A stretch of 64,000 bases of DNA from a virus. The DNA is taken from positions 7,681-71,680 of the IMG/VR virus record IMGVR_UViG_3300031566_000019; one strand, written 5' to 3'. Positions 1,580-11,458 of this stretch are shown here, piece after piece. How positions within the stretch are numbered: the first letter of the stretch is position 1; each line of letters opens with the position of its first letter. The notes below the pieces were generated by a model. It did not search any database, was not told the DNA's origin, and worked only from the letters and a program-made list of their open reading frames with translations. A program made the position numbers and the translations under genes.

Positions 1580-2152
1580 TCAAGAAGTCACTGCTGCCGC
1601 GGCCTCCTCATCGACCTTGTTCTCGGGCCAGTACCAGTGACCCTCATCCTTCTCGACGTTGTAGGGGCGTCTTTCGTCCTCCCCCTCTTCGCGGATGCCA
1701 TCCCACAAGGCTTCGCTTCCAGACATCTGATTCCAACATACGCCGCGCCACCCCTTTGCTTCCGCTTCCTCGACGACCTTGCGGAGCGCGGTTGCTTGCT
1801 CAGGAATGGTGAACATGTAGTTCTGTTCCCTTTGCCGAGGGCCGTAGGTTCTGTCAAATTCCTCGAGCGCGGAAGCGACGGAAGCAACATGCTCCATGGG
1901 GATGACCACCTTGTCGAAGGTCGTCATCAGAGTCACCGTTTCCCACGGTGCGAGCTTGCCCTCCTTGGCGAGATCGAAGACGGGCTTGAGCCCACTCATC
2001 ATCATCATGGTGAAGGCCATACCCGTCGCTTGGAGATGTTTCTCGGCAAGGATACGCCAGATGGCCATCGCTCCCCCGTGGGCGTTGGAGAATCGTTCGT
2101 AGATCACGACATCGCCGTCGCGACTCACTGCGTATAACCGGGTCTCGCTCAT
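1580..2152 (-). CDS. hypothetical protein (~190 aa)
   Basis: Clean ORF in operon orientation. The start is probably ATG 2152, 7 nt after a TAAAAT box, rather than 2161, whose ATG lies inside that box. Confidence 0.75.
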   Translation of the reverse strand: MSETRLYAVSRDGDVVIYERFSNAHGGAMAIWRILAEKHLQATGMAFTMMMMSGLKPVFDLAKEGKLAPWETVTLMTTFDKVVIPMEHVASVASALEEFDRTYGPRQREQNYMFTIPEQATALRKVVEEAEAKGWRGVCWNQMSGSEALWDGIREEGEDERRPYNVEKDEGHWYWPENKVDEEAAAAVTS

Positions 2153-2227
2153 TTCCCTCATTTTACGGACAGAATTGGCGATCTCTGCCGAAAGGGCTAC
2201 CAGGGCTCTGGGGTGCCCAAGAGGGCC

Positions 2228-2878
2228 TTACCCTTCTGATCCCTGTCCTCCGAAGCCCTTGAAGAACCTCGAGGCACCCCCGGTGTCGCCGTACCAGATC
2301 ATCGGGGTTCCGTCGGCGCGATTCTCAGCCCCGTAGGCGGCGCCTTTGTTGCCCTCTCGACTGCCAGCCGAAGCACGCTTGACCGTCCCCGAACCCGAGG
2401 TCAGTTGGCCGCTCTCCCTGTCGAGCTCAGCCACGGGACAACCCGCTTCGCACTCCCAGTTGGGCACCGTCTCTTTCCCGTCCGCGCCCGCGTAGCTCAT
2501 GTCCTCCATCGGAGGCTTCTCTCCTTCGGAGAAGATGGTGCGCCCTCCACTGTTTTTGCGGTGAGCTGTGCCGGTTGCGACCTTACGAGTGCCAACGACT
2601 CGACATCCAAGGCGATGCACGAGCATCACGTTGGGGGGCCACCGTCCTCCGTGGTTTACCTGCCACTGCCCCCACCCTTTCTTGTGGTGAGGGAACTCGG
2701 CACCAATTCCCTCTTCAGAGGCGAACGCCCCTTTACCTACCGTCGGCGTCTTGTCAGCCTCGGATTGGTAGGCGATCCGACTCGCGGCAATGTTGAGGGC
2801 GCCGGCTTCGTGCTCCACGACATTAGCCGTGGTGCTCCCTGACTGACAGGGTTTTCGCGCCACGGTTACCACTCTCAT
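2228..2878 (-). CDS. stand-alone middle (variable, target-recognition-like) module of a beta-class phage DNA methyltransferase
   Basis: MRVVTVARKP..TANVVEHEAGALNIAASRI..GRWPPNV..WECEAGCPVAELD..YGDTGGASRFFK matches the insert between ARKP and SRFF in large phage N6/N4 MTases. It has neither DPPY nor FxGxG. Confidence 0.8.
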   Translation of the reverse strand: MRVVTVARKPCQSGSTTANVVEHEAGALNIAASRIAYQSEADKTPTVGKGAFASEEGIGAEFPHHKKGWGQWQVNHGGRWPPNVMLVHRLGCRVVGTRKVATGTAHRKNSGGRTIFSEGEKPPMEDMSYAGADGKETVPNWECEAGCPVAELDRESGQLTSGSGTVKRASAGSREGNKGAAYGAENRADGTPMIWYGDTGGASRFFKGFGGQGSEG

Positions 2879-3507
2879 TTGAACCCGCTGACCTTCGCGT
2901 ACGCCTTCACGAGTTTGACGTAGTCTGGGTTCATGGTCCCGGCCGCCGCCACGCTGTCAGCGAGTTTGAATGCCTCTTTGAGTGTGTAGCCCATCACTCG
3001 CATGGCAAACGCAGCCACCGAGGCACCCGTCCGATCTGTCCCGTTCATGCAGTGAACGTAGACGGGCATCCCGAGACGGTTGAGCTGCGCAAGACGGTCC
3101 ACATAACCGATGAAGTCGTAGGACCGCAGGGCCGGACCGAGGACGATGGAGTTGTTCCCGCCCTCGATCTGCCACCACATCACCTTGTCCTTGTCGCCGT
3201 GCAGCACCCCCGGCACCCACGGCGGATCTTCTTGATTGAACTGCGGCGGGATGTCGGGCCGGTTCGTGGGCCATGTTGCCTCCACGTCGATGCCGAACGC
3301 CTCCATCTCGGGCTGCCAGACATCGCGCTCGCCGCCTTCCACGTTGTCGATGACCGACACGTCGATGAAGGGCTGCTCCTCATTGATGCCAAGTACCTGG
3401 CGAAGCTCCTTGAAAGCGAACGTCCGGTCAGAACGGAGAGGAAGATTGCCGCGCCAGAGGTTCATTCCGACGTGGGCACAACGAGAGGGATCGAATACGG
3501 CTGCCAT
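2875..3507 (-). CDS. cysteine-based (tyrosine/dual-specificity-like) phosphatase
   Basis: P-loop VYVHCMNGTDRTG (HCxxGxDRTG) and N-terminal LWRGNLP. Confidence 0.85.
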   Translation of the reverse strand: MAAVFDPSRCAHVGMNLWRGNLPLRSDRTFAFKELRQVLGINEEQPFIDVSVIDNVEGGERDVWQPEMEAFGIDVEATWPTNRPDIPPQFNQEDPPWVPGVLHGDKDKVMWWQIEGGNNSIVLGPALRSYDFIGYVDRLAQLNRLGMPVYVHCMNGTDRTGASVAAFAMRVMGYTLKEAFKLADSVAAAGTMNPDYVKLVKAYAKVSGFK

Positions 3508-3510
3508 GGT

Positions 3511-4995
3511 CTACTCCAGTTCCTCGACGCGCTGTTTGGCCTGCTCGAGCAGATACGTTTGAACACGCTCTCGATTCTCAGCGCACTGCGAACAGACCTC
3601 AAGACGCTCACCCTTCTCCTTGATCTCCATCTCCGTGTCGCGCTCTTCGCATACGGGGCAGTCTCCAACCGAGGACTCCTCGTCACTCCCCCCGAACCCG
3701 AAGAAGTCCCCGAGACCGACGGACTCTTCTGCCGCGAACTCAGCTTCGGACTCGATAGTTGCACCGTTCCAAGCATTCTCTGCTCGGTCCCAGTGACGGA
3801 TGCGCTGGTCCGCGATGCGTAGATACTCAGCATCTTGGTCGATGCCGATGAAGTTGTGTCCCGTCCGCAGACACGCGAGTCCCGTCGTGCCACTCCCCAT
3901 GAAACAGTCCACCACCGTGGCGCCCTTGGGGATGTCTTGTAGGAGTGCTTCCATGACGCCGACAGCCTTGACCGTGGGATGCTCATTCTGCACGACGCGT
4001 CCCGTGTCCGACTCTCGAGCCACGATGCCCGTGTTGCGTTCAGCCGAGCTGGCCTTTGCGACGTAGTGGAACTCGCCCGGGGTGTCGAGGAGCGCGATGG
4101 CATCGCGGATCTCGTAGCCAAAGTCTTCGACGGCACACGCCCCCGTGTGCCCCGTAAGTTCCTCGTCAGGAGCGACCAGCAGCAGGTGTGCGCCTGGCCG
4201 AAGGACTCGATCGATCTCTTCCATGTGGGGCTCAGGGTTGCCCATGGTGATCATCCCATGCACCGACGCGTCCTCGTGCTCCTCCCACGGGTAGTCCTCC
4301 AGGCTAGGCTGCGCGATGATGACGGGCTCACACGAGGCAGGCGGAGAGATCATCGTGATCAGGTAGTCAAACAGTTCTGGAGGCAGCTCGTTCATCTCAA
4401 TTTCCTGTACCTGCTTAAAGTATCGAGCAGCGCTTCCGCTATCGTCGTAAAGAGGTCCCTGTTTTTGGTAGTCCCCTTGGTTGGGGCGGTACAGGCTTGG
4501 AACCGACGTGGATGAGGGATGTGGGCCCGTAGATGGGCGCTGTCCGCTCTGCTCCCCCAGACTCTGAACCGCACAGCCCTCTTCGCACTCCCATACGGCA
4601 ACCTGTTCTTCGGGCTGAGCTTCGCTTTCGTACTCATGCCCCGCACCTCCGCCGAAAGGCTTCGCGCCGTCTGACCATCGGTTGATGGTGTAGCCTGGCA
4701 CCACTATGGTGCCAGTCTGTTTACAACCAGCACGGTGCATCAGGACCACATTGGCAGGCCAACGCCCCGTCCCGTCTGCCGTCCCACATCCCATCTTGAA
4801 ATCAAGGCCACGCGTGCGGTTGTCCTCGTGCCCACGATCTCCACTTGCGTTTGCCTTGTAAGTCCCTTGGTCTTGAACTGAGGAGAACCCTATCCGGCAC
4901 GCATCGATGTTGATGGCACCTGCTTCGTACTCGGTGATGTTGGCAGTCGTGCTCGAGGCAATGCACGGCCGACGACTGACCGTCACTACCCTCAT
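3511..4995 (-). CDS. rearranged DNA methyltransferase-like protein: variable module, degenerate catalytic subdomain, intact SAM-binding half, C-terminal zinc ribbon
   Basis: The N-terminus parallels 2228-2878. Then DASVHGMITMGNP (DPPY lost), RVLRPGAHL, AVEDFGYEIRD, YVAKAS..NEHPTVK, VVDCFMGSGTTG, FIGIDQDAEY and CPVC..CSQC. Confidence 0.85.
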   Translation of the reverse strand: MRVVTVSRRPCIASSTTANITEYEAGAINIDACRIGFSSVQDQGTYKANASGDRGHEDNRTRGLDFKMGCGTADGTGRWPANVVLMHRAGCKQTGTIVVPGYTINRWSDGAKPFGGGAGHEYESEAQPEEQVAVWECEEGCAVQSLGEQSGQRPSTGPHPSSTSVPSLYRPNQGDYQKQGPLYDDSGSAARYFKQVQEIEMNELPPELFDYLITMISPPASCEPVIIAQPSLEDYPWEEHEDASVHGMITMGNPEPHMEEIDRVLRPGAHLLLVAPDEELTGHTGACAVEDFGYEIRDAIALLDTPGEFHYVAKASSAERNTGIVARESDTGRVVQNEHPTVKAVGVMEALLQDIPKGATVVDCFMGSGTTGLACLRTGHNFIGIDQDAEYLRIADQRIRHWDRAENAWNGATIESEAEFAAEESVGLGDFFGFGGSDEESSVGDCPVCEERDTEMEIKEKGERLEVCSQCAENRERVQTYLLEQAKQRVEELE

Positions 4996-5213
4996 AATTC
5001 CTTGATGCCTTCCAGGAACTCCTCACGATCGAAGGTGCTCCAACGATCCTTGAGAACCTTGCCGCGCCACACGATGATCTCGGAGTTCTTGACGATGCCT
5101 CCATCGATGGGAGGCCAGCCGTCCGCCGGAGTGTCCTCGAGCGCGCAGGCCGGAACCGTCACACGCCAAGACGCCCGAGCTCGATAGTAGACGCGGTTGT
5201 CACCTTCCATCAT
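4992..5213 (-). CDS. small hypothetical protein
   Basis: Fills the gap between neighbours; its TGA overlaps the next ATG (ATGA). Confidence 0.65.
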   Translation of the reverse strand: MMEGDNRVYYRARASWRVTVPACALEDTPADGWPPIDGGIVKNSEIIVWRGKVLKDRWSTFDREEFLEGIKEL

Positions 5214-5219
5214 GGACGC

Positions 5220-5936
5220 TCACCCGATCAGAATACGGCCCCCGAATTTGCTCACCGCCATCTGGCCCTTGGCGATGCGTTGGTCGAGGGAAAAGAGACG
5301 GTCCATGTCAATCCCCGACGGGATTTCGATTGGGTATTCTCCGTTCTCCGAGTAGATCTCCCAACCATTGAGTTCAAGACCACCACTCCCAAGCTGACCC
5401 AGGATATACGGGGTGTAGCTGATTTCGACACGAAACCCCCGAGTCTCATAGAGCGCGGCTGCGAAGATGTCCGTATCGACCAACGTGACGAGCATGGCAT
5501 CGGATCGCTTGTACGGTGGCACTTTGAGCAACCGTTCTTGAGATTGCTTGGCGAAGTCGCTACGCATTTGCATCGCAGCTTTGTAGAACGCTTCATGTGC
5601 GTCGCCTCCGTCCGCAAGCTGTACTGTGACGGAAGGGACGCAGTGCTCCTCGTCCGTGTGGTAGAGGCGGCGCCCGCCTATCTTCGGCCAGGATGCGCGG
5701 ATGATTTTCCGGCCCCACGAAATGCCCCCAGGCACCGGCGTCATTGTCGTCGGCACGACCTTGGGTCGAGTGAGCACGAGGTGACTCCGTGTCAGGCTTG
5801 TGTGCTCCGGCGTCCAGATCTTGCTCTCTTTGCCGGAGAACAGAGGGACGATTGGACTCGCATTCGCTGTCGTAGTAACGAGCAGCGAGGTGCCGCCTAC
5901 CCCGAGCATCTGTAGGAACTGTCGCCTGTTGGTCAT
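5220..5936 (-). CDS. hypothetical protein with a twin-arginine (Tat) signal-like N-terminus
   Basis: MTNRRQFLQMLGVGGTSLLVTTTANA-S: RRxFL, a moderately hydrophobic h-region and an AxA cleavage site. Confidence 0.75.
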   Translation of the reverse strand: MTNRRQFLQMLGVGGTSLLVTTTANASPIVPLFSGKESKIWTPEHTSLTRSHLVLTRPKVVPTTMTPVPGGISWGRKIIRASWPKIGGRRLYHTDEEHCVPSVTVQLADGGDAHEAFYKAAMQMRSDFAKQSQERLLKVPPYKRSDAMLVTLVDTDIFAAALYETRGFRVEISYTPYILGQLGSGGLELNGWEIYSENGEYPIEIPSGIDMDRLFSLDQRIAKGQMAVSKFGGRILIG

Positions 5937-5945
5937 GGCTACACT

Positions 5946-6635
5946 CTACTCTTGTGCGGAGAGGAGTCGCTCGTAGGTTCCCTCGAAACCCGACAAGTCG
6001 ACGGAACGCAGATCCCGGTAGTCAAACGGGATGCCCTCGGTAAGGCTGATCATGGGACCACGGAAACCCAACAGGGTGCTGTTGTAGCGGACGAATTCCC
6101 GCTGGATGCGGAGGCGCCCCTCGACGAACTCGATCCCTCTTTGCACGATGCGCCACAGCCCCGAACTGCGCTTCTTTGGATCGTCATTCGGTGCCTGCTC
6201 AATGAGCCCCCAGTACAGGAGCCGGGAGAACTCGCCGTCCTTGCCCATGAACTTCGGTGCCCTCGAAGGGACATGGACGAAATCACCAGGATGCAGGTCG
6301 TGGTACCGCTTCATCCAAATCAAAGCGATGGCGTTGTTGATGCTGAACGGAAGAGAGCGAGCTTTGGCGATGCGGTCACACGCCCCACAGATGACACCAT
6401 CCTTGGTGTACATCCCTTCCGCGACACGATCCCGTTCCTCCTCGAGGCCGCTGCCCGTAAGTGGCTCACCGACGACCTTGCGCAGGTGCCCCATGTGCTC
6501 CCGCATAAGTGCCTTGGCGCTGTCCACGTCTCCGGCCTCCAAAGCATTCTCGATGCGCTTGAGCTGTGCTCGGAGTTTGTCGAAATCCTCGTCCGGCTCG
6601 GAGACCCCTATTACTGTGGCGAAGTCAAACTCCAT
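5946..6635 (-). CDS. phage protein with CxxC and a winged-helix-like C-terminal domain
   Basis: The true start is probably ATG 6635 (TGATG overlap), not 6956. CGACDRIAK..FSRLLYWGLIEQ..SGLWRIVQRGIEFVEG resembles a recurrent phage wHTH-like family. Confidence 0.7.
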   Translation of the reverse strand: MEFDFATVIGVSEPDEDFDKLRAQLKRIENALEAGDVDSAKALMREHMGHLRKVVGEPLTGSGLEEERDRVAEGMYTKDGVICGACDRIAKARSLPFSINNAIALIWMKRYHDLHPGDFVHVPSRAPKFMGKDGEFSRLLYWGLIEQAPNDDPKKRSSGLWRIVQRGIEFVEGRLRIQREFVRYNSTLLGFRGPMISLTEGIPFDYRDLRSVDLSGFEGTYERLLSAQE

Positions 6636-7339
6636 CAGGGTTTCCTCGCCACAACAACAGGTTCCCAAGCCGGCTTCAAAGCGGTCCCGTACCCCTCCCA
6701 CAATTTGGCCAGCTCCGTCGCGGGGATCGTGATGGGCACATCCACGGCAACCTGCTTGGCCCCGGTACCGTAAGCCCCGACGCCCTTGCCTCCTTCGTCC
6801 GTCGTCTGTCGGACCCCCCGGCCATGCACGATGTCGTTCATGTTCTCGCCGCCGACACCACGTTTGGTCCCGACGACTTCGCGCTCCGCACCAGCCTGCT
6901 TGTCGATCATTTTTGAGATGTTCGTGGATTTTGGGAAGCCACTTCCGTAAATCCATGCCTCAAGTTGGGGCTTGCTGAACAACGCCTGCTCCATCGCGCG
7001 CGCCATCTTGTGGAAAGTTCTTGTACCACCGAACGCTTTGACCACCCCACCAGGCTTGAGTTTTCGGAGCACAAGTTTCCAGAACTTCACATCGAAAGCG
7101 ATGCCGGTGGCGTCCCAGACTTTGCCCATGAAGCCGCCCGTTTTTCTCACTTGGTCGTGTGAACCAAGTTTCGTACGGCCGAAAGGAGTGTTGGGGTCGT
7201 TCTGTCGAGGAGACCCTCCCCGACTCACCTGTGTCAGGTCATAAGGCGGGTCGCAGACGAAAGCATCAATCGAGCCATCTTCGAGTTCCTCGATGCGTTC
7301 GAGGCAGTCCCCGTACAACAGTTGCACTACAACGGCCAT
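6635..7339 (-). CDS. N-terminal catalytic half of a beta-class N6-adenine-type DNA methyltransferase (no SAM-binding motif I)
   Basis: ATG 7339 overlaps the dnaB TAA. GDCLERI..IDAFVCDPPY..FMGKVWD..LKPGG..AFGGTRTFH..WIYGSGFPKS..ALKPAWEPVVVARKP-stop. Confidence 0.88.
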   Translation of the reverse strand: MAVVVQLLYGDCLERIEELEDGSIDAFVCDPPYDLTQVSRGGSPRQNDPNTPFGRTKLGSHDQVRKTGGFMGKVWDATGIAFDVKFWKLVLRKLKPGGVVKAFGGTRTFHKMARAMEQALFSKPQLEAWIYGSGFPKSTNISKMIDKQAGAEREVVGTKRGVGGENMNDIVHGRGVRQTTDEGGKGVGAYGTGAKQVAVDVPITIPATELAKLWEGYGTALKPAWEPVVVARKP

Positions 7340-8922
7340 TACAGTTCCAAGTCGGGGGTCTCGTGCTGACGCTTCGCCTTCTTGCGCCACTTCTTCTGGT
7401 CATCGTCGTCACCGCCGCTCTTGGCTTGCTGCATGGCGGTGTCGAGCTCAGCCATGGTCGTGGTGTCATCCGTAAGGAGCCGACGCCATGTGAAGCGCAC
7501 GCTGACAGGGATGCGTTCAAACGGTTTCTGATCGCGCGACTTGAGACACTGGAAGATGGCCTTGTCGATCTTCCGTAGTTCGTCATCAATCCAAGTAGCT
7601 GTCACGATGTCTGCCGACCTCTCACACTCGTTCGCGTACGAAAGGTGCGTCAGATTGTACCGGCCTCCGCTCTTCTCAGCCGCTCGATAGCCTTCACGCG
7701 AGATCTGAAACAGGCACAAGACCGCGATCCCCATGCCGCGGTTGAACGACATCGCCATTCGCTTGAGATCTCGGACGACTTCGTTGAGCTTCTCCGTCGT
7801 GTTGGAGTACCGGCCACGCGCGCTCATCAAGCCAGCGTGGTCGACGACGATCATGGAGAAGGGTGTCTTCGAGAAAATGAGCTCGGCACGGCCCCGCAGA
7901 TCGGCCATCGAGAAGTCCGACTTGTCGGGATCGGCAACCTCCAGGTGGATGGAGCCGTACTCCTCAGCTTGGAGACTGTAGGGGCCCGCGTGGGGAACCG
8001 TCGAACGACCACCGAGGTCGGGGACCACGTACTCTCGAAGGAACCTCTCCTCGTTGTCGTTCAACAAGCCGTCGCGGATCTTCTCGTAGTCGAGGCCCCC
8101 GTCGATGCCGAGCTGTTCGCGGATATCCGCGAAGTCCTCATGTGCCGTGTGCATCGTGTAGATGATGTTGCGGCACTGCATGTAGGGCATCTCGAGCGAA
8201 AAATAGACGGTCGAGAACCCGAAGTAGACAGCTTGGACGTAGGCCCAATGGAGCGCGAACGTGGATTTCATCGAGCCCGTGAACCCTGCATGAATCCACA
8301 ACTCGTAGCGCTTGGCCCCTTTGAGGGCGGCATCAATCTGCGAGATGCCGCAGTACTGACCGATGCCGAATTTGGGATCCGCCTTGACCCGGTCATACCG
8401 GCTCAGGAAGTCCTCACCGTCCTGCGTCAGGTTGCCCGAGAGCTTCGACCCGAGCGTGGGCGCCACGATGTTGTGGCTCCCGTCGAGGACATACCGAATC
8501 GCGTCGATGGCTCCGAGGAGTTTCGTGCTCTTGCCTCGCGGGTCTTTGAGCTCGATGCCTGTCGAGATGATCTTGGCCCCCTCCTTGAACAACTCGATGG
8601 CGACGCGGTTACGACGGTCGCGGGCCTTCTCTTCAAGGTAGGTGAGAAAGTCGCCACGCGTACGCGGCTTGATCATCGCCAGCCGCTCGAGGCGGTCCAC
8701 CACGTCCGCTTCTTGAACGGCCGTGAAGTGTTGCCTCATCGTCTGGATAGATGGGACGTGTCCGTAGGTCTTGAAGAAGTCCTGCAGGTACGTCCAGACG
8801 ATGTTGTCTTCGGGGGTGTCGAAGCCAAGCCCCGACTCCTGCATCGCATGGTAGTTCTGCGCGAAGAGTTGCTCGCTGTCCGTAGCCTGAGCGAGGAAAC
8901 AGGATCGAAGGATGTTCTTCAT
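7339..8922 (-). CDS. dnaB: DnaB-like replicative helicase
   Basis: Walker A AGFTGSMKST, FSLEM, MIVVDH, LFQISRE and ERSADIV (SF4 helicase motifs). Confidence 0.92.
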   Translation of the reverse strand: MKNILRSCFLAQATDSEQLFAQNYHAMQESGLGFDTPEDNIVWTYLQDFFKTYGHVPSIQTMRQHFTAVQEADVVDRLERLAMIKPRTRGDFLTYLEEKARDRRNRVAIELFKEGAKIISTGIELKDPRGKSTKLLGAIDAIRYVLDGSHNIVAPTLGSKLSGNLTQDGEDFLSRYDRVKADPKFGIGQYCGISQIDAALKGAKRYELWIHAGFTGSMKSTFALHWAYVQAVYFGFSTVYFSLEMPYMQCRNIIYTMHTAHEDFADIREQLGIDGGLDYEKIRDGLLNDNEERFLREYVVPDLGGRSTVPHAGPYSLQAEEYGSIHLEVADPDKSDFSMADLRGRAELIFSKTPFSMIVVDHAGLMSARGRYSNTTEKLNEVVRDLKRMAMSFNRGMGIAVLCLFQISREGYRAAEKSGGRYNLTHLSYANECERSADIVTATWIDDELRKIDKAIFQCLKSRDQKPFERIPVSVRFTWRRLLTDDTTTMAELDTAMQQAKSGGDDDDQKKWRKKAKRQHETPDLEL

Positions 8923-9998
8923 CGCTTCCTCCCGAACGGCTTGTTCGAGGACTTTTTCTTGAACGCTTTAAGCCGTGACTGCTCCTCTTGCACTTCTTCG
9001 TTCTGTTTCATCTGATCAAGAAGGTTGCGAGTTCCGGTAGGCGTCACGCCCTCGTCGTCTTCCCCTTCGTCGTCCTCGCCTTCGTCGTCCTCGCCTTCGT
9101 CGTCCTCGCCTTCGTCGTCTTCCCCTTCGTCGTCCTCACCCTCCTCGTCCTCACCCTCCTCGTCCTCACCCTCCTCGTCCTCACCCTCAACTTCTTCATC
9201 TCCGTTGAGATCCGAGAGCGCATTTTCGATTTCGGCAGCAACCTCTTCGCCCCCGGCCTCAAGCAAGTCGTCGGGGTCCACATCGGACACGGTTTGCGCG
9301 GCCGCGATGGCTCCTCCCACAATCTTGAGGGAACCCGATCCGGTCAACCGGATGTGGGGCCAGTGAAGAAGCATCCCCTCGAGCGCCTCACTGTAAGCAC
9401 GGTGGTCGGTCGTCATCAGCGGCGCAGCCGGTTGGTCAAGCACCCACGAAGGGCGCCCGAGATGGCGCCGCGTCTTGATGGCCTCGAGGAGCACCGATGG
9501 GGTTTCCTTGTTCGGGGCCGTCTTCACTCCGAGCATGAAGACCACGAGTTCGTAAGACTCGACCAGCTCATCGATGTACATGGCCGTGACACGAACGGTG
9601 TCGAGCTCCGTATCGTAAATCTTGTGGCCTTGCGCGTACGCAGTGTTGAGCCACGCCTTCACGAGATCCTTGTCCGACCAAACGCGGACATCCCACATGT
9701 GATTCTTGCGGTAACAGACCGCTTTGAAGTGCTTACGGAAAACGGACTCTTGGGAAGTTATCCACAGGTCTCGTTTCGTAAGACTGAGGAGAGGGCAACT
9801 CTCCCGCAGTCCAGGCACGTCCTTGGTCTGAGACAGCGACGGCCAAATGCGCTCCATGTTGGCCCTGCGGTGATGGTCGAGGGTGCACTCACAGTCGCGG
9901 CCGCCTTTGTCACCCGGCATCGTGATCATGGACGGTGCGTAGATCCACCCCTCCCCTTTACACTTGGGGCAATCTGGGTCTGCGTAGGGCCGCTTCAC
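8919..9998 (-). CDS. degenerate DnaC/IstB-like helicase-loader homolog with an acidic repeat tail
   Basis: Probable GTG start at 9998 (GTGA overlap). N-terminal CPKC..CEC zinc motif, AAA-like remnants (DLWITSQ, YELVVFMLG, LEAIKTRRHLGRPSWV), directly upstream of dnaB, but no GxxGxGKT. Confidence 0.6.
   Translation of the reverse strand: MKRPYADPDCPKCKGEGWIYAPSMITMPGDKGGRDCECTLDHHRRANMERIWPSLSQTKDVPGLRESCPLLSLTKRDLWITSQESVFRKHFKAVCYRKNHMWDVRVWSDKDLVKAWLNTAYAQGHKIYDTELDTVRVTAMYIDELVESYELVVFMLGVKTAPNKETPSVLLEAIKTRRHLGRPSWVLDQPAAPLMTTDHRAYSEALEGMLLHWPHIRLTGSGSLKIVGGAIAAAQTVSDVDPDDLLEAGGEEVAAEIENALSDLNGDEEVEGEDEEGEDEEGEDEEGEDDEGEDDEGEDDEGEDDEGEDDEGEDDEGVTPTGTRNLLDQMKQNEEVQEEQSRLKAFKKKSSNKPFGRKR
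9048..9188. repeat. 15-bp tandem repeat, 9 full units plus a partial, encoding (EDEEG)3(EDDEG)6
   Basis: Units such as gccttcgtcgtcctc and accctcctcgtcctc read directly from the sequence. Confidence 0.95.
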
Positions 9999-11458
9999 CC
10001 TCCTTGTACCCCCAAGAGTTCCAAGATGCCGCCGCCTTCGTCGTCTTTCTCTCGAGAGGGGGCGTCCTCGCCTAAGAGGCGAGCTGTAGCGAGTTCCAAG
10101 TAGTCGGGGTTCACGTCGAGCCCAACGTAGTCTCGGCCGTTGTCGAGACTCACAACGCCTGTGGTGCCACTCCCCGAGAAGGGATCGAGAACCCGACACG
10201 GGATCGCCTCATGCGCAGGGCAACCACATGTTGGATGCCACACTGTCGTGGTCTTCGATTGTCCGTGCTCAGAGTCCTCCCCGTCGAGTTCTCCAGGGGC
10301 ACCTGTCGCCTTCATGACCTCCTCACGCCAGTCAGGGGGCTCAGTCGCCTCCACAGCGCGTTCCCACGGGTTGCCGCACATGGGGCAGCACCCGCGCTCG
10401 GACGTGCCTGCAAGGACACAGGGCTCAATCAGCTCCGGCGGGAAAACGGCGAAGTGCGCACCTCGGTACGGTTTCGGCGTTACCGTCCAGACGGATCGCT
10501 TGTTGCGCCCGTTGGCAGGACCTTGCTGAGCAAGATCGTCGCTGAGGTCGTAGTCGTACTTCTTGTCGGGCCGCATCGCATCGTACTGCGCCCCGCTGCG
10601 TGAAGTGAGCCGTCGCTGGGGTTTCATCGACAGCGGCTCTTTGATGGCATCGTGATCGTAGAAGTACTTGGCCTTCTTCGTGAGCATGAAGATATGCTCG
10701 TGGGATCGCGTGACTCGATCCCTCACGCTTTCAGGGAGCGGGTTGGGCTTGGCCCAGATGATCTCGCTGCGCAGGTACCACCCGTCGTCCTGGAGCGCGA
10801 AAGCAGAGCGCCAAGGGATACCAACAAGGTCCTTGGACTTGAGACCTGGAGGTGCGACGGGCTTCTTGTCTTTGTAGGTGAGACCCCGTTCTTCGAGTCG
10901 TTTGGAGATCGAGAAGTTGCCATCCTTCTTCTGGCCTGCGCGTCGCTTTGTCGTCTCGGATTGGTAGCTCGCCCCCGAAGGCCCGGACCCCGCGTAACTG
11001 TCCCCGAGGTTGAGCCAGCATGTGCCATCATCACGAAGGACTCGACGGATCTCACGGAAGATCTCGACAAGATGTCGCGTGTACATCTGAGGCGTAGGCT
11101 CAAGGCCGAACTGACCGAGCCATGCACCACACCTCTGGCAAAACTGCCCACTCCCGGCCGTCTGCCTTTTGTCTGCTGCTTCGGCGCTTTTCCCCTTGGT
11201 TGGCTCGACCTGATTCGGATGGTGAGGTCTGCCCATCGGCCCCCACTCGTGATCGCACCCCTCGTCGCCTCCCCACACCTGTGCCTCACCCTCGTAATCA
11301 CGAAGACCCCAATACGGAGGGGACGTGATCATGCACTGCATGGAGCCCTCAGGGAGACGGCGCAACCCCTCAAGACAACTCGCCCCGTAGAACAAAGTGG
11401 CCGTAGCGGGATGGTCCCCGAGGGGTCTGCGTACTTCTACCGGCTCCACCTCACTCAT
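9995..11458 (-). CDS. intact beta-class DNA methyltransferase (N4-cytosine/N6-adenine family)
   Basis: ITSPPYWGLRDY, RVLRDDGTCWLNLGDSY, EIIWAKPNPLPES..RSHEHIF, AHFAVFPPEL and VLDPFSGSGTTG, with Cys-rich inserts. Confidence 0.93.
   Translation of the reverse strand: MSEVEPVEVRRPLGDHPATATLFYGASCLEGLRRLPEGSMQCMITSPPYWGLRDYEGEAQVWGGDEGCDHEWGPMGRPHHPNQVEPTKGKSAEAADKRQTAGSGQFCQRCGAWLGQFGLEPTPQMYTRHLVEIFREIRRVLRDDGTCWLNLGDSYAGSGPSGASYQSETTKRRAGQKKDGNFSISKRLEERGLTYKDKKPVAPPGLKSKDLVGIPWRSAFALQDDGWYLRSEIIWAKPNPLPESVRDRVTRSHEHIFMLTKKAKYFYDHDAIKEPLSMKPQRRLTSRSGAQYDAMRPDKKYDYDLSDDLAQQGPANGRNKRSVWTVTPKPYRGAHFAVFPPELIEPCVLAGTSERGCCPMCGNPWERAVEATEPPDWREEVMKATGAPGELDGEDSEHGQSKTTTVWHPTCGCPAHEAIPCRVLDPFSGSGTTGVVSLDNGRDYVGLDVNPDYLELATARLLGEDAPSREKDDEGGGILELLGVQGG

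What the first reader, a model, noticed from the sequence alone, without database searches (positions are those of the whole stretch)
2228..7339. Three-gene split and permuted DNA methyltransferase cut at a duplicated VVVARKP junction
Seen: 6635-7339 carries the catalytic half (DPPY through ALKPAWEP) and stops exactly at VVVARKP. Two other genes begin with that same strand: MRVVTVARKP (2228-2878) and MRVVTVSRRP (3511-4995). All three have their own coupled start codons, so they look like maintained genes rather than debris. Known: in large phage beta-class MTases these segments are normally one chain in the order DPPY, ARKP, variable region, SRFF, HPTVK, FxGSG. Inference: a heteromeric MTase in which one subunit supplies catalysis, one supplies SAM binding, and the variable module exists in two exchangeable versions, possibly giving switchable specificity against host restriction.
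Basis: partly seen in the sequence, partly recalled or inferred. Interest (0 to 1): 0.85.

Follow-up and report, generated by a model that had tools for sequence, protein, structure and literature searches.

The report
Split phage DNA methyltransferase, three genes
A very large soil phage encodes one DNA-methylating enzyme as separate catalytic, cofactor-binding and DNA-reading proteins that probably snap together, a conserved layout that may let the phage mark more than one DNA motif to escape host restriction.

Summary
All three genes lie on the minus strand.
- A (6635-7339) is the catalytic N-half (DPPY) and stops right after VVVARKP.
- B (3511-4995) and C (2228-2878) both begin with a copy of that strand.
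- All three starts overlap the preceding stop codon.

C is a T module only.

The layout is conserved.
- Among 43 distinct related phage loci with an Np-bearing gene, 40 carry a free-standing N gene. The other 3 are cut at the contig end.
- Of 52 single-chain N-T-Ch loci, 2 carry free modules.
- Some relatives hold arrays, with up to 6 N and 7 T genes around a single hub.
- dN/dS is 0.08-0.22 for A, B and C.
- Relatives carry inteins inside A- and B-type genes.

A model of A+B scored ipSAE 0.87 against controls of 0.00. It places A's DPPY strand beside B's SAM-binding strand. This may partly reflect likeness to solved single-chain enzymes.

The A+B heteromer is well supported. C as an exchangeable module is plausible but not shown, and there is no wet-lab evidence. 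Five literature searches found no description. This scan noted the same kit before on other DNA (8 notes).

The parts
6635..7339 (-). Gene A (N subunit): catalytic N-half of a beta-class amino-methyltransferase, 234 aa, ending at the strand VVVARKP followed by TGA
   Evidence: phrog_67 3.1e-27 and phrog_6025 9.3e-24. 45% identical to the N-half of mycobacteriophage methylases. N profile 2e-101.
7241..7252 (-). Motif IV, DPPY (A residues 30-33)
   Evidence: Invariant in 37 of 37 free-standing N subunits. Aligns to the DPPY of CcrM and M.RsrI.
6638..6658 (-). A's terminal strand VVVARKP (residues 228-234), first copy of the duplicated junction
   Evidence: All 37 N subunits stop 0-9 residues after this strand.
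3511..4995 (-). Gene B (hub): T module + degenerate N-half (Np) + SAM-binding half (Ch) + zinc-ribbon-like tail, 494 aa
   Evidence: PF01555 5.1e-16 on residues 332-395. Profiles T 2e-68, Np 1e-59, Ch 7e-53. 1640 relatives at E<=1e-5 among 8000 candidates scored.
4405..4995 (-). B residues 1-197: recognition module T, from MRVVTVSRRP (second copy of the strand) to ARYF
   Evidence: In the A+B model residues 1-6, 16-32 and 75-83 touch A residues 210-229.
4021..4404 (-). B residues 198-325: Np, a degenerate copy of the catalytic half. The motif IV position reads GNPEPH (252-257, 4225-4242).
   Evidence: hhalign of Np-Ch cores against N subunits: probability 83.6%, E 8.1e-6, 39 columns. The Np profile also hits the N-half of single-chain enzymes. 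The motif IV position is not conserved among 45 B-type proteins.
3694..4020 (-). B residues 326-434: SAM-binding half Ch, with HPTVK (339-343, 3967-3981) and D-C-F-M-G-S-G (363-369, 3889-3909)
   Evidence: M1.HpyAVI/DpnA 1.9e-10, M.BceJIV 6.9e-10, CcrM 4.4e-8. H339, T341, K343, D363, F365, G367 and G369 are invariant in 45 of 45. Structural matches to the C-terminal part of RsrI, CcrM and M.BceJIV, Z 6.3-6.8.
3514..3663 (-). B residues 445-494: C-terminal tail with CPVC...CSQC and a long helix, present only in the closest relatives
   Evidence: aligned in P0007 and P0011; pLDDT 86-95; strands 455-468, helix 475-493. Function not examined.
2228..2878 (-). Gene C: free-standing T module, 216 aa, from MRVVTVARKP (third copy of the strand) to GGASRFFKGF. 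It has no HPTVK and no FxGSG.
   Evidence: T profile 3e-51. phrog_3008 2e-9. 36% identical to the middle part of the single-chain enzyme of LR745208. Orthologues in L046 (65%), L030 (67%) and L047 (55%).
5946..6635 (-). Intervening gene, 229 aa from the ATG that overlaps A's stop; unknown function (phrog_2693)
   Evidence: 2e-12. No homologue seen next to the modules in related loci. Probably not part of the system.
5220..5936 (-). Intervening gene, 238 aa, with a twin-arginine-like N-terminus (RRQFLQMLGVGG). It recurs between N and hub in relatives.
   Evidence: Homologues between the N and hub genes in L046, L047, L028 and the L043-45/51-52 group. Any link to the methyltransferase is unknown.
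4992..5213 (-). 73-aa gene whose stop overlaps B's start. It is conserved directly upstream of the hub gene in three relatives.
   Evidence: L028 75%, L030 74%, L008 46%. No family hit. Absent in L007.
2875..3507 (-). Dual-specificity phosphatase-like gene between B and C (HCMNGTDRTG)
   Evidence: PF00782 4e-8, 33.6 bits against a cut-off of 33.5. Same position in L046 only. In L030 C follows B directly. Probably a passenger.

Best explanation
A, B and C are subunits of one naturally split beta-class (N6-adenine/N4-cytosine) DNA amino-methyltransferase of a huge soil phage. A supplies the half of the Rossmann fold that carries the catalytic DPPY loop. B is the hub: its C-terminal half binds SAM (HPTVK, FMGSG). 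In the assembled enzyme A's DPPY strand lies next to B's SAM-binding strand, so the active site is built from two chains. B's own degenerate copy of the catalytic half (Np) has lost motif IV. It probably serves as a built-in partner that grips A, in the way the second protomer does in the usual beta-class homodimer. The recognition module T (a zinc-type H/C/C/C module with three hypervariable stretches between constant docking elements) sits on A's constant C-terminal region. B carries one T in cis. C is a second, different T that keeps the same docking elements and could take that place, or act in a second copy of the complex, to give a second target motif. The likely purpose is self-methylation of phage DNA against host restriction. 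Shown here: the anatomy, the conservation of the cut points, the co-occurrence, purifying selection, and a confident model of the A-B interface. Inferred: real binding, activity, DNA as substrate, the role of Np, and the exchange of T modules.
For: (1) Complementary parts. A has DPPY and no SAM motif. B has invariant HPTVK and D-x-F-x-G-x-G but a non-conserved motif IV position. C has neither. (2) The single-chain relatives have exactly N-T-Ch in this order. (3) The cut is conserved. Syntenic relatives L007, L008, L028 and L030 (DnaB ... ligase) have separate A- and B-type genes at 45-85% identity. All 37 free N subunits stop 0-9 residues after the strand. All 30 free T modules aligned were picked to begin at the strand, and all end 2-14 residues after GGASRFF except one that carries an N-type tail. 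(4) Co-occurrence. Of 43 distinct loci with an Np-bearing gene, 40 have a free N gene, and the other 3 have the hub at the very start of the contig. Of 52 distinct single-chain loci, 2 have a free N or T. Counting only loci fetched with B as bait: 36 of 39. (5) Np occurs only with a separate N. The one exception is L060, a single N-T-Np-Ch chain that keeps both strand copies. L042 has N and Ch on one chain, no Np, and two free T genes. (6) Purifying selection: dN/dS is 0.08-0.16 for A, 0.13-0.21 for B and 0.11-0.22 for C. (7) Inteins sit in conserved motifs of relatives: in A-type genes at YG|SGFPKS and in B-type proteins inside HP|TVK (P0013; sources name P0013 and P0041 'intein/homing endonuclease'). 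(8) Complex model of A + B(1-440). ipSAE was 0.87 in 3 of 3 runs and the best of 3 controls was 0.00. That mark was reached by 58 of 80 solved complexes and 2 of 110 mismatched pairs. The runs share at least 76% of contacts and the partner pLDDT is at least 68. Contacts: A 24-28 (strand before DPPY) with B 361-363 (strand before FMGSG); A 5-8 with B 382-385; A 105-114 and 123-134 with B 279-303 (Np); A 210-229 with B 1-6, 26-32 and 78-83 (T). (9) In the monomer model of B, solved methyltransferases align either to 311-419 or to 202-304, never across both. This fits Ch not being completed by Np in the canonical way. (10) C is identical to B at 20 of 27 positions that touch A, against 61 of 173 elsewhere. 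(11) Among T modules the constant elements are 53-80% identical and the three stretches between them 7-17%. N subunits have one variable loop (21%) between constant parts (57-62%). (12) Relatives hold arrays, for example L081 T-N-T-N-N-T-N-hub and L108 with six T, a hub, two N and one T.
Against: There is no experiment. Binding, activity, substrate and motifs are all unmeasured. The complex score may come partly from the model's memory of solved single-chain beta-class enzymes, as the tool warns for halves of a split gene. My own alignments were used, so the calibration holds only roughly. B's T is tethered, so how C gains access is unexplained. C folded alone is of low confidence (pLDDT 53.8). 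C is dispensable in evolution: L028 has none, and in L008 it is broken into pieces. B has C364 where 90% or more of relatives have P. Pfam recognises neither A nor C at E<=0.01. dS is saturated (1.3-4.2), and two pairs gave no estimate, so the ratios are rough. The contig is about 14% of the genome by CheckV, so further N, T or hub genes may exist, and the real partners of C may lie elsewhere. The evidence that Np is a remnant of N is moderate (hhalign 83.6%, 39 columns). Its role as a clamp rests on model contacts alone.
Confidence: 0.7

Rival explanations
1. B is a self-contained methyltransferase (T + Np + Ch) that uses its unusual motif IV position. A and C are leftovers, or have other jobs such as regulators or decoys.
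For: B models with high confidence through 190-430 (pLDDT about 87-98). Np is homologous to the catalytic half. In this clade the motif IV position often reads [ND]-P-x-P-[HYW].
Against: Across 45 B-type proteins that position is not conserved (for example GEPTEA, GDLDF, GAIQQE). Solved enzymes do not align across Np and Ch together. A free N gene with invariant DPPY accompanies the hub in 40 of 43 loci, and the other 3 are cut at the contig end. A is under purifying selection and hosts inteins in relatives.
Confidence: 0.08
2. The three genes are decaying fragments of one methyltransferase gene, broken by insertion of foreign genes and on their way to loss.
For: Unrelated genes lie between the pieces. 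C is lost or broken in some relatives. Cultured mycobacteriophages carry the fused form.
Against: The same cut points recur in dozens of diverged loci. dN/dS is 0.08-0.22. The starts are coupled. No frameshifts or indels appear in 4 runs. The hub has gained a dedicated extra domain (Np) that is found only in split systems.
Confidence: 0.03
3. A+B is a real two-chain enzyme, but C is not an alternative recognition head. It may be a second DNA-reading subunit present at the same time (division of labour, as in beta-class dimers), a regulator that competes with B's T, or the partner of an N/hub pair encoded elsewhere in the 86% of the genome not in hand.
For: B's T is tethered in cis. Beta-class enzymes work as dimers with divided roles (PMC7544214, passages read). 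The contig is about 14% complete. C keeps the docking elements.
Against: In fully split relatives the numbers of T and N vary freely around one hub (counts from 1 N + 1 T to 6 N + 3 T and 2 N + 7 T). That fits interchangeable parts better than a fixed second subunit.
Confidence: 0.2
4. The assembled enzyme does not protect phage DNA from restriction. Instead it methylates another substrate (RNA or host DNA) for regulation.
For: A two-subunit methyltransferase of Stx phages, annotated as a DNA adenine methylase, was reported to prefer 16S rRNA (bioRxiv 10.1101/2023.09.20.558713, passages read). No substrate is shown here.
Against: The nearest solved relatives are DNA enzymes. The genes sit in the replication module, between DnaB and ligase. 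Hypervariable recognition modules in arrays are what an arms race with restriction systems would produce. The Stx-phage enzyme is not detectably related to C (no Escherichia phage among 93 records).
Confidence: 0.07

Closest known systems
Single-chain phage beta-class amino-methyltransferases with the N-T-Ch layout (Pfam PF01555, phrog_67), for example Mycobacterium phage Adahisdi gp59 and a 533-aa ORF of huge phage LR745208
   Same: They hold the same segments in the same order: DPPY...EPVVVARKP, GALNID, GRWPxN, RFF, H[PS]TVKP, DPFxGSGTT. A is 45% identical to the N-half. C is 36% identical to the middle part of the LR745208 enzyme.
   Different: They are one polypeptide with one copy of the strand and no Np. 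Here there are three genes, each T starts with its own copy of the strand, and the SAM half carries a degenerate extra N-half.
Solved beta-class DNA methyltransferases (M.BceJIV, CcrM, M.RsrI, M1.HpyAVI/DpnA), which are homodimers
   Same: B's Ch aligns in sequence (E 1.9e-10 to 4.4e-8) and in structure (Z 6.3-6.8, rmsd 1.3-3.2 A over 75-90 residues). A's DPPY segment aligns to CcrM and RsrI. Dimer with divided roles (PMC7544214).
   Different: In those enzymes each chain is a complete fold. Here no chain holds both motif IV and motif I in working form.
METTL3-METTL14 and ciliate MTA1-MTA9 heterodimers
   Same: They are beta-class-like pairs in which one partner has an eroded motif IV and acts as a scaffold (PMC7544214, passages read). 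B's Np likewise has an eroded motif IV.
   Different: In those pairs the active subunit binds SAM itself. Here the SAM site and the catalytic loop are on different chains. No sequence relation beyond the class was tested.
Natural two-polypeptide C5 methyltransferases M.AquI and M.EcoHK31I, and engineered split M.SssI/M.HhaI
   Same: The active enzyme is made from two chains cut in or near the variable region. Engineered fragments sometimes need a short overlap to assemble (PMC3404938, passages read), which resembles the duplicated strand here.
   Different: They belong to a different class (cytosine-5). They have two pieces only, no pseudo-half and no arrays of alternative modules. No PF00145 hit here.
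Type I restriction-modification methyltransferases (HsdM2 HsdS)
   Same: Specificity lies in a separate, exchangeable subunit with variable regions between conserved ones (M2S1 composition: abstract of PMC3510504 as listed; the rest recalled).
   Different: HsdM is a complete gamma-class enzyme. HsdS is an unrelated fold. No HsdS or HsdM family hit here.
Multispecific cytosine-5 methyltransferases of Bacillus phages (SPR, phi3T, rho11s). Recalled from memory; no call.
   Same: A phage enzyme carries several recognition domains on one catalytic core to counter several host restriction systems.
   Different: There the recognition domains sit in tandem on one chain of a C5 enzyme. Here they are separate genes of an amino-methyltransferase.

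Membership tests
Beta-class N6A/N4C DNA amino-methyltransferase (Pfam PF01555 N6_N4_Mtase) | Motif IV (D/N/S)PP(Y/F/W) after a beta strand | tested here: met
   A residues 30-33 are DPPY. Invariant in 37 of 37 N subunits. Aligned to CcrM and RsrI.
Beta-class N6A/N4C DNA amino-methyltransferase (Pfam PF01555 N6_N4_Mtase) | Motif I FxGxG with the preceding HPTxKP element (SAM binding) | tested here: met
   B has H339-P-T-V-K343 and F365-M-G-S-G369. PF01555 scores 59.7 bits against a cut-off of 26.7. These residues are invariant in 45 of 45.
Beta-class N6A/N4C DNA amino-methyltransferase (Pfam PF01555 N6_N4_Mtase) | Motifs IV and I on one polypeptide in the order IV - recognition domain - I | tested here: not met
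   Motif IV is on A and motif I on B. The order is kept only at the level of genes. A and C get no Pfam hit at E<=0.01.
Beta-class N6A/N4C DNA amino-methyltransferase (Pfam PF01555 N6_N4_Mtase) | SAM-dependent methyl transfer to adenine N6 or cytosine N4 in DNA | not testable with these tools
   Needs expression and methylome reading.
Split phage kit: free N + free T + hub (Np-Ch or T-Np-Ch). No published name found; also noted before by this scan. | Free-standing N gene with DPPY that stops just after the strand E-P-h-h-h-x-[RK]-K | tested here: met
   A matches.
Split phage kit: free N + free T + hub (Np-Ch or T-Np-Ch). No published name found; also noted before by this scan. | Hub gene with a degenerate N-half directly before the SAM half | tested here: met
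   B scores Np 1e-59 and Ch 7e-53. hhalign of Np against N gives 83.6%.
Split phage kit: free N + free T + hub (Np-Ch or T-Np-Ch). No published name found; also noted before by this scan. | T module that begins with its own copy of the strand, carries GALNID, GRWPxN and H..C...C..C, and ends at GGASRFF | tested here: met
   C and B residues 1-197 match.
Split phage kit: free N + free T + hub (Np-Ch or T-Np-Ch). No published name found; also noted before by this scan. | The parts are encoded within a few kb on one strand | tested here: met
   All lie within 2228-7339 on the minus strand. The whole 71.7-kb contig holds exactly 1 N and 2 T.
Split phage kit: free N + free T + hub (Np-Ch or T-Np-Ch). 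No published name found; also noted before by this scan. | The subunits bind one another | tested here: inconclusive
   The model supports A-B binding (0.87 against 0.00), but a model is not a measurement.
Two-polypeptide cytosine-5 methyltransferases (M.AquI type) | C5 methyltransferase fold and motifs (Pfam PF00145) | tested here: not met
   No PF00145 hit for A, B or C at E<=0.01. The resemblance is functional only.
Type I methyltransferase (HsdM/HsdS) | HsdS specificity subunit (PF01420) and HsdM (PF02384) | tested here: not met
   No such hit for any of the 9 proteins scanned.

The most novel reading that the evidence does not exclude
Huge phages have turned one methyltransferase into a plug-and-play kit. 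A single SAM-binding hub carries a dead pseudo-half that clamps the partner. The hub accepts any of several catalytic halves (N) and recognition modules (T), so that n N genes and m T genes could write many different motifs. The duplicated strand is the docking element that makes the parts interchangeable. In this phage the kit would be in its minimal form: one N, one hub with a T attached, and one spare T.
Probability: 0.4. Interest if true: 0.85.

Novelty: new variant of a known kind. Interest (0 to 1): 0.74.

Why it matters
If the parts assemble as modelled, three things follow.

1. This would be a natural amino-methyltransferase whose active site is shared between two polypeptides and whose DNA-reading head is a separate protein. 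No such case turned up in five literature searches.

2. It would explain how huge phages with broad or changing hosts can cover many restriction systems with small genes instead of many whole enzymes.

3. It would give a ready-made scaffold for programmable DNA methylation, because the recognition part is a small independent module with defined constant docking ends.

It also matters for annotation. A and C get no Pfam hit and would be called hypothetical, while B would be called a complete methylase although it lacks a catalytic motif.

Tried and rejected
- Nucleotide search of 2000-9000 against 50,697 GenBank phage records found no match.
- A single-protein locus search with B gave only 3 loci, so I used alignment A1 instead.
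- B against GenBank phages: 29 records match, and 0 of 29 cover 80% or more of B; all match only the Ch part. I therefore found no cultured phage with the hub architecture.
- I did not trace where PHROG families 6025 (N-only) and 3008 (T-Ch) come from. Mycobacterium phage Cactus gp102/gp103 looks like a broken or two-piece gene, and I did not follow it. Salmonella phage 9NA gp61 is a single-chain methylase.
- C folded alone gave pLDDT 53.8, so no fold search was run on it and the fold of T remains untested.
- The fold search with B gave only partial matches with Z under 8. It says nothing on the T part.
- No listed holder of the stretch is on record as RNA, so there is no information on expression.
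- A recent duplication or target-site duplication at the junction is rejected, because the three DNA copies differ.
- An assembly artefact is rejected.
- A low-depth contig that replaces 96 letters at 3054-3151 in three runs probably comes from another organism. I did not pursue it.
- The Stx-phage two-subunit methyltransferase was considered as a relative and set aside: C finds no Escherichia phage among 93 records. It was not compared directly.
- Literature: five full-text searches listed no paper describing a naturally split beta-class phage methyltransferase with free recognition modules. I read passages only of PMC7544214, PMC3404938, PMC7824862 and bioRxiv 10.1101/2023.09.20.558713. Subscription journals and REBASE are not covered, and supplements were not consulted.

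Full report
**Where it lies.** The window is 64 kb of a 71.7-kb IMG/VR viral contig that CheckV rates about 14% complete, so this is a fragment of a very large phage. Six soil metagenome runs hold the stretch. The finding sits in a replication module on the minus strand. The gene order is: another complete PF01555 methyltransferase (9995-11458), a DnaB-like helicase (7339-8922), gene A, three small genes, gene B, a phosphatase-like gene, gene C, a 193-aa gene, and an NAD-dependent ligase (3-1508).

- A (7339 down to 6635, 234 aa) carries DPPY at residues 30-33 and ends ...ALKPAWEPVVVARKP, followed directly by TGA.
- B (4995 down to 3511, 494 aa) begins MRVVTVSRRP. C (2878 down to 2228, 216 aa) begins MRVVTVARKP.
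- Each start overlaps the stop of the gene before it: TAATG for A, ATGA for B and C.
- The three strand copies are alike as protein but differ as DNA, so the duplication is old and maintained.
- Contigs from 4 of 4 runs laid cover 2228-7400 without any inserted or deleted letter. The exact B protein is on record on 4 contigs.

**What the pieces are.**
- Pfam sees only the last third of its methylase model in B (residues 332-395 against profile 159-219 of 221, 59.7 bits). It sees nothing in A or C.
- PHROGs place A in phrog_67 and in phrog_6025, an N-half-only family. They place B and C in phrog_3008, whose profile starts at the strand.
- Against solved structures, A's first 36 residues align to the DPPY region of CcrM and M.RsrI. 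B 331-400 aligns to M1.HpyAVI/DpnA, M.BceJIV, MboIIA and CcrM.
- In mycobacteriophage records the matches to A and to C abut, and they overlap by just the strand.

Between ARYF (about residue 193) and FHYVAKASSAER...HPTVK lie about 125 residues that resemble the catalytic half itself (LRPGAHLLLVAP..., GYEIRDAIALL).
- tblastn places B 239-320 on the N-half of single-chain enzymes.
- A profile of this segment (Np) hits the N-half of the single-chain proteins listed.
- hhalign of 20 Np-Ch cores against 37 N subunits gives 83.6% probability (E 8.1e-6, 39 columns).
- Where motif IV should be, B reads GNPEPH. Across 45 B-type proteins this position is not conserved, whereas HPTVK and D-x-F-x-G-x-G are invariant.

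So B = T (1-197) + Np (198-325) + Ch (326-434) + a zinc-ribbon-like tail. C = T only, ending shortly after GGASRFF.

**The layout is conserved and widespread.**
- Four syntenic relatives (L007, L008, L028, L030; contigs of 83-619 kb) have separate A-type and B-type genes at 45-85% identity.
  - L030 has A - 84-aa gene - B - C, packed tightly.
  - L007 has A, then B overlapping A's stop, then two different C-type genes.
  - L028 has no C, and in L008 C is broken.
- B has 1640 relatives at E<=1e-5 among 8000 scored candidates.
- I built profiles for N, T, Np and Ch and classified all ORFs in the loci fetched with A and with the B alignment. Two architectures appear:
  - single chains N-T-Ch without Np;
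  - kits of free N genes, free T genes and exactly one hub (Np-Ch or T-Np-Ch).
- After removing duplicates, 43 loci have a hub and 40 of them have a free N. The other 3 have the hub at the very start of the contig.
- Of 52 single-chain loci, 2 have any free N or T. With the loci baited by B only, the count is 36 of 39.
- Copy numbers per locus range from 1 N + 1 T (15 loci) to 6 N + 3 T and 2 N + 7 T.
  - L081 reads T-N-T-N-N-T-N-hub.
  - L080 reads N|T|hub with 4-base overlaps.
- Two informative exceptions:
  - L060 is one chain N-T-Np-Ch that keeps both strand copies in tandem.
  - L042 has N and Ch on one chain, no Np, and a free T on either side.

Np thus goes with the separation of N from Ch.

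**The cut points are exact.** All 37 free N subunits aligned have invariant DPPY and stop 0-9 residues after the strand. The 30 free T modules were picked to start at the strand. All but one end 2-14 residues after GGASRFF, and the exception carries an N-type tail.

**The variable and constant parts of T and N are distinct.**
- T has invariant K9, N29, R34, R79, N83 and GGASR-F, and near-invariant H88, C92, C143 and C147. I read these four as a zinc site (an inference).
- Constant elements of T are 53-80% identical on average. The three stretches between them are 7-17% identical.
- N has one variable loop (21%) between constant parts (57-62%).

That is the pattern of specificity cassettes with fixed docking ends.

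**The genes are kept by selection.** Against orthologues, dN/dS is 0.08-0.16 for A, 0.13-0.21 for B and 0.11-0.22 for C. dS is saturated and two pairs failed, so these are rough but clearly below 1.

Relatives also carry inteins in the most conserved spots:
- between YG and SGFPKS in A-type genes of L007, L008 and L030 (my reading of the Cys...GN/S boundaries);
- inside HP|TVK in B-type proteins (P0013; sources name P0013 and P0041 'intein/homing endonuclease'; also L108).

**How it probably fits together.** I folded B with 45 relatives: mean pLDDT 80.4, pTM 0.65, with strand 2-8 and the region 190-430 confident. Solved methyltransferases align either to 311-419 (RsrI, CcrM and M.BceJIV C-terminal parts, Z 6.3-6.8) or to 202-304, never across both. 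So in this model Np does not complete Ch as a normal N-half would.

The complex job (A with alignment A2, B 1-440 with alignment A1) gave these results:
- ipSAE was 0.87 in all three runs, and the best of 3 controls was 0.00.
- That mark was reached by 58 of 80 solved complexes and 2 of 110 mismatched pairs.
- The runs share at least 76% of contacts, and the partner pLDDT is at least 68.
- The tool warns that halves of a split gene can pass by likeness to solved structures, and that my own alignments were not calibrated.

The contacts are nevertheless specific:

| A residues | B residues | Meaning |
|---|---|---|
| 24-28 (strand leading into DPPY) | 361-363 (strand leading into FMGSG) | Normal neighbour pair in this fold |
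| 5-8 | 382-385 | Strand-to-strand contact |
| 105-114 (helix), 123-134 (strand) | 279-303 | Np packs against A |
| 210-229 (constant C-terminal part; Y217, L221) | 1-6, 26-32 (GAINID), 78-83 (RWPAN) | T docks on A |

The model therefore rebuilds the single-chain enzyme from two chains and adds Np as an extra grip on A. I suggest that Np stands in for the second protomer of the usual beta-class homodimer (PMC7544214, passages). That is an inference.

**Where C fits.** C shares 20 of 27 residues with B at the positions that touch A, against 61 of 173 elsewhere. So it keeps the docking surface while its variable stretches differ. Alone it folds poorly (pLDDT 53.8), as a module that needs partners might. 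Whether it displaces B's tethered T, works in a second complex, or pairs with parts encoded elsewhere in the genome is open. The contig has only 1 N and 2 T, but it is about 14% of the genome.

**Comparison with what is known.**
- By sequence and fold this belongs with beta-class amino-methyltransferases. It fails the one-chain criterion.
- It works like M.AquI or M.EcoHK31I (two-chain C5 enzymes), and like engineered split enzymes, where a short overlap can be needed for assembly (PMC3404938).
- It also works like METTL3-METTL14 (one eroded motif IV) and like Type I enzymes (separate specificity subunit). It is a member of none of these.
- Five literature searches found no description. A survey of jumbo phage methylases mentions none (PMC7824862, passages). 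No GenBank phage record covers the hub architecture.
- This scan has noted the same kit in at least 8 other windows. I reached my reading before seeing those notes, and I tested the shared claims here.

**Verdict.** This is a real, conserved, three-gene split methyltransferase. The A+B heteromer with a shared active site is the best-supported reading (about 0.7). C as an exchangeable recognition head is plausible (about 0.4-0.5). Everything awaits expression and methylome tests.

Noticed in passing
window 9995-11458 (-): A second, complete single-chain PF01555 methyltransferase (487 aa, SPPY motif, 2.3e-39) lies 2.6 kb upstream of gene A. The phage therefore has at least two amino-methyltransferase systems. 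Relatives L007 and L008 have a counterpart upstream of DnaB.
   Followed up: partly
window 8919-10199 (-): This ORF has a long acidic tandem repeat (GEDEE/GEDDE units, about 50 residues) near its C-terminus. Its listed 5' part overlaps the methyltransferase gene at 9995-10199, so the true start is probably further downstream.
   Followed up: no
window 5220-5936 (-); L046 5329-5988, L047 5206-5979, L028 8622-9335, L043 6462-6857: A 238-aa protein with a twin-arginine-like signal (RRQFLQMLGVGG) lies between the N gene and the hub gene in this phage and in several relatives (37-54% identity). It has no family hit. Why it keeps this position is unexplained.
   Followed up: partly
window 4992-5213 (-); L028 9619-9837, L030 8315-8533, L008 8357-8572: A 73-aa gene has a stop that overlaps the start of the hub gene. 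It is conserved in the same place in three relatives and absent in L007. It could be a fourth component or a chaperone. No family hit.
   Followed up: partly
window 2875-3507 (-): A dual-specificity phosphatase-like gene (HCxxGxxR, PF00782 just above its cut-off) is inserted between B and C. It is shared with L046 only.
   Followed up: partly
L028 5140-7995: The DnaB-like helicase of this relative is 951 aa because of an intein-like insertion. The window's DnaB (7339-8922, 527 aa) has none.
   Followed up: no
L085 2143-2652: A T module ends with the C-terminal constant part of an N subunit (...WDGWGTALKPAWEPVCIGVKK). It looks like a recombination product between a T and an N gene.
   Followed up: no
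window 3514-3663 (-), B residues 445-494: A zinc-ribbon-like tail (CPVC...CSQC plus a long helix) is modelled with high confidence. It is present only in the closest relatives of B (P0006, P0007, P0011, L008). Before it, nearly all B-type proteins end in a conserved acidic stretch plus L-x-D-L-F-G, which may be a docking peptide.
   Followed up: no
window 3054-3151: In three of four runs a low-depth contig (depth about 3.5) replaces 96 letters with 99 others inside the phosphatase-like gene. It is probably a related strain or another organism.
   Followed up: no
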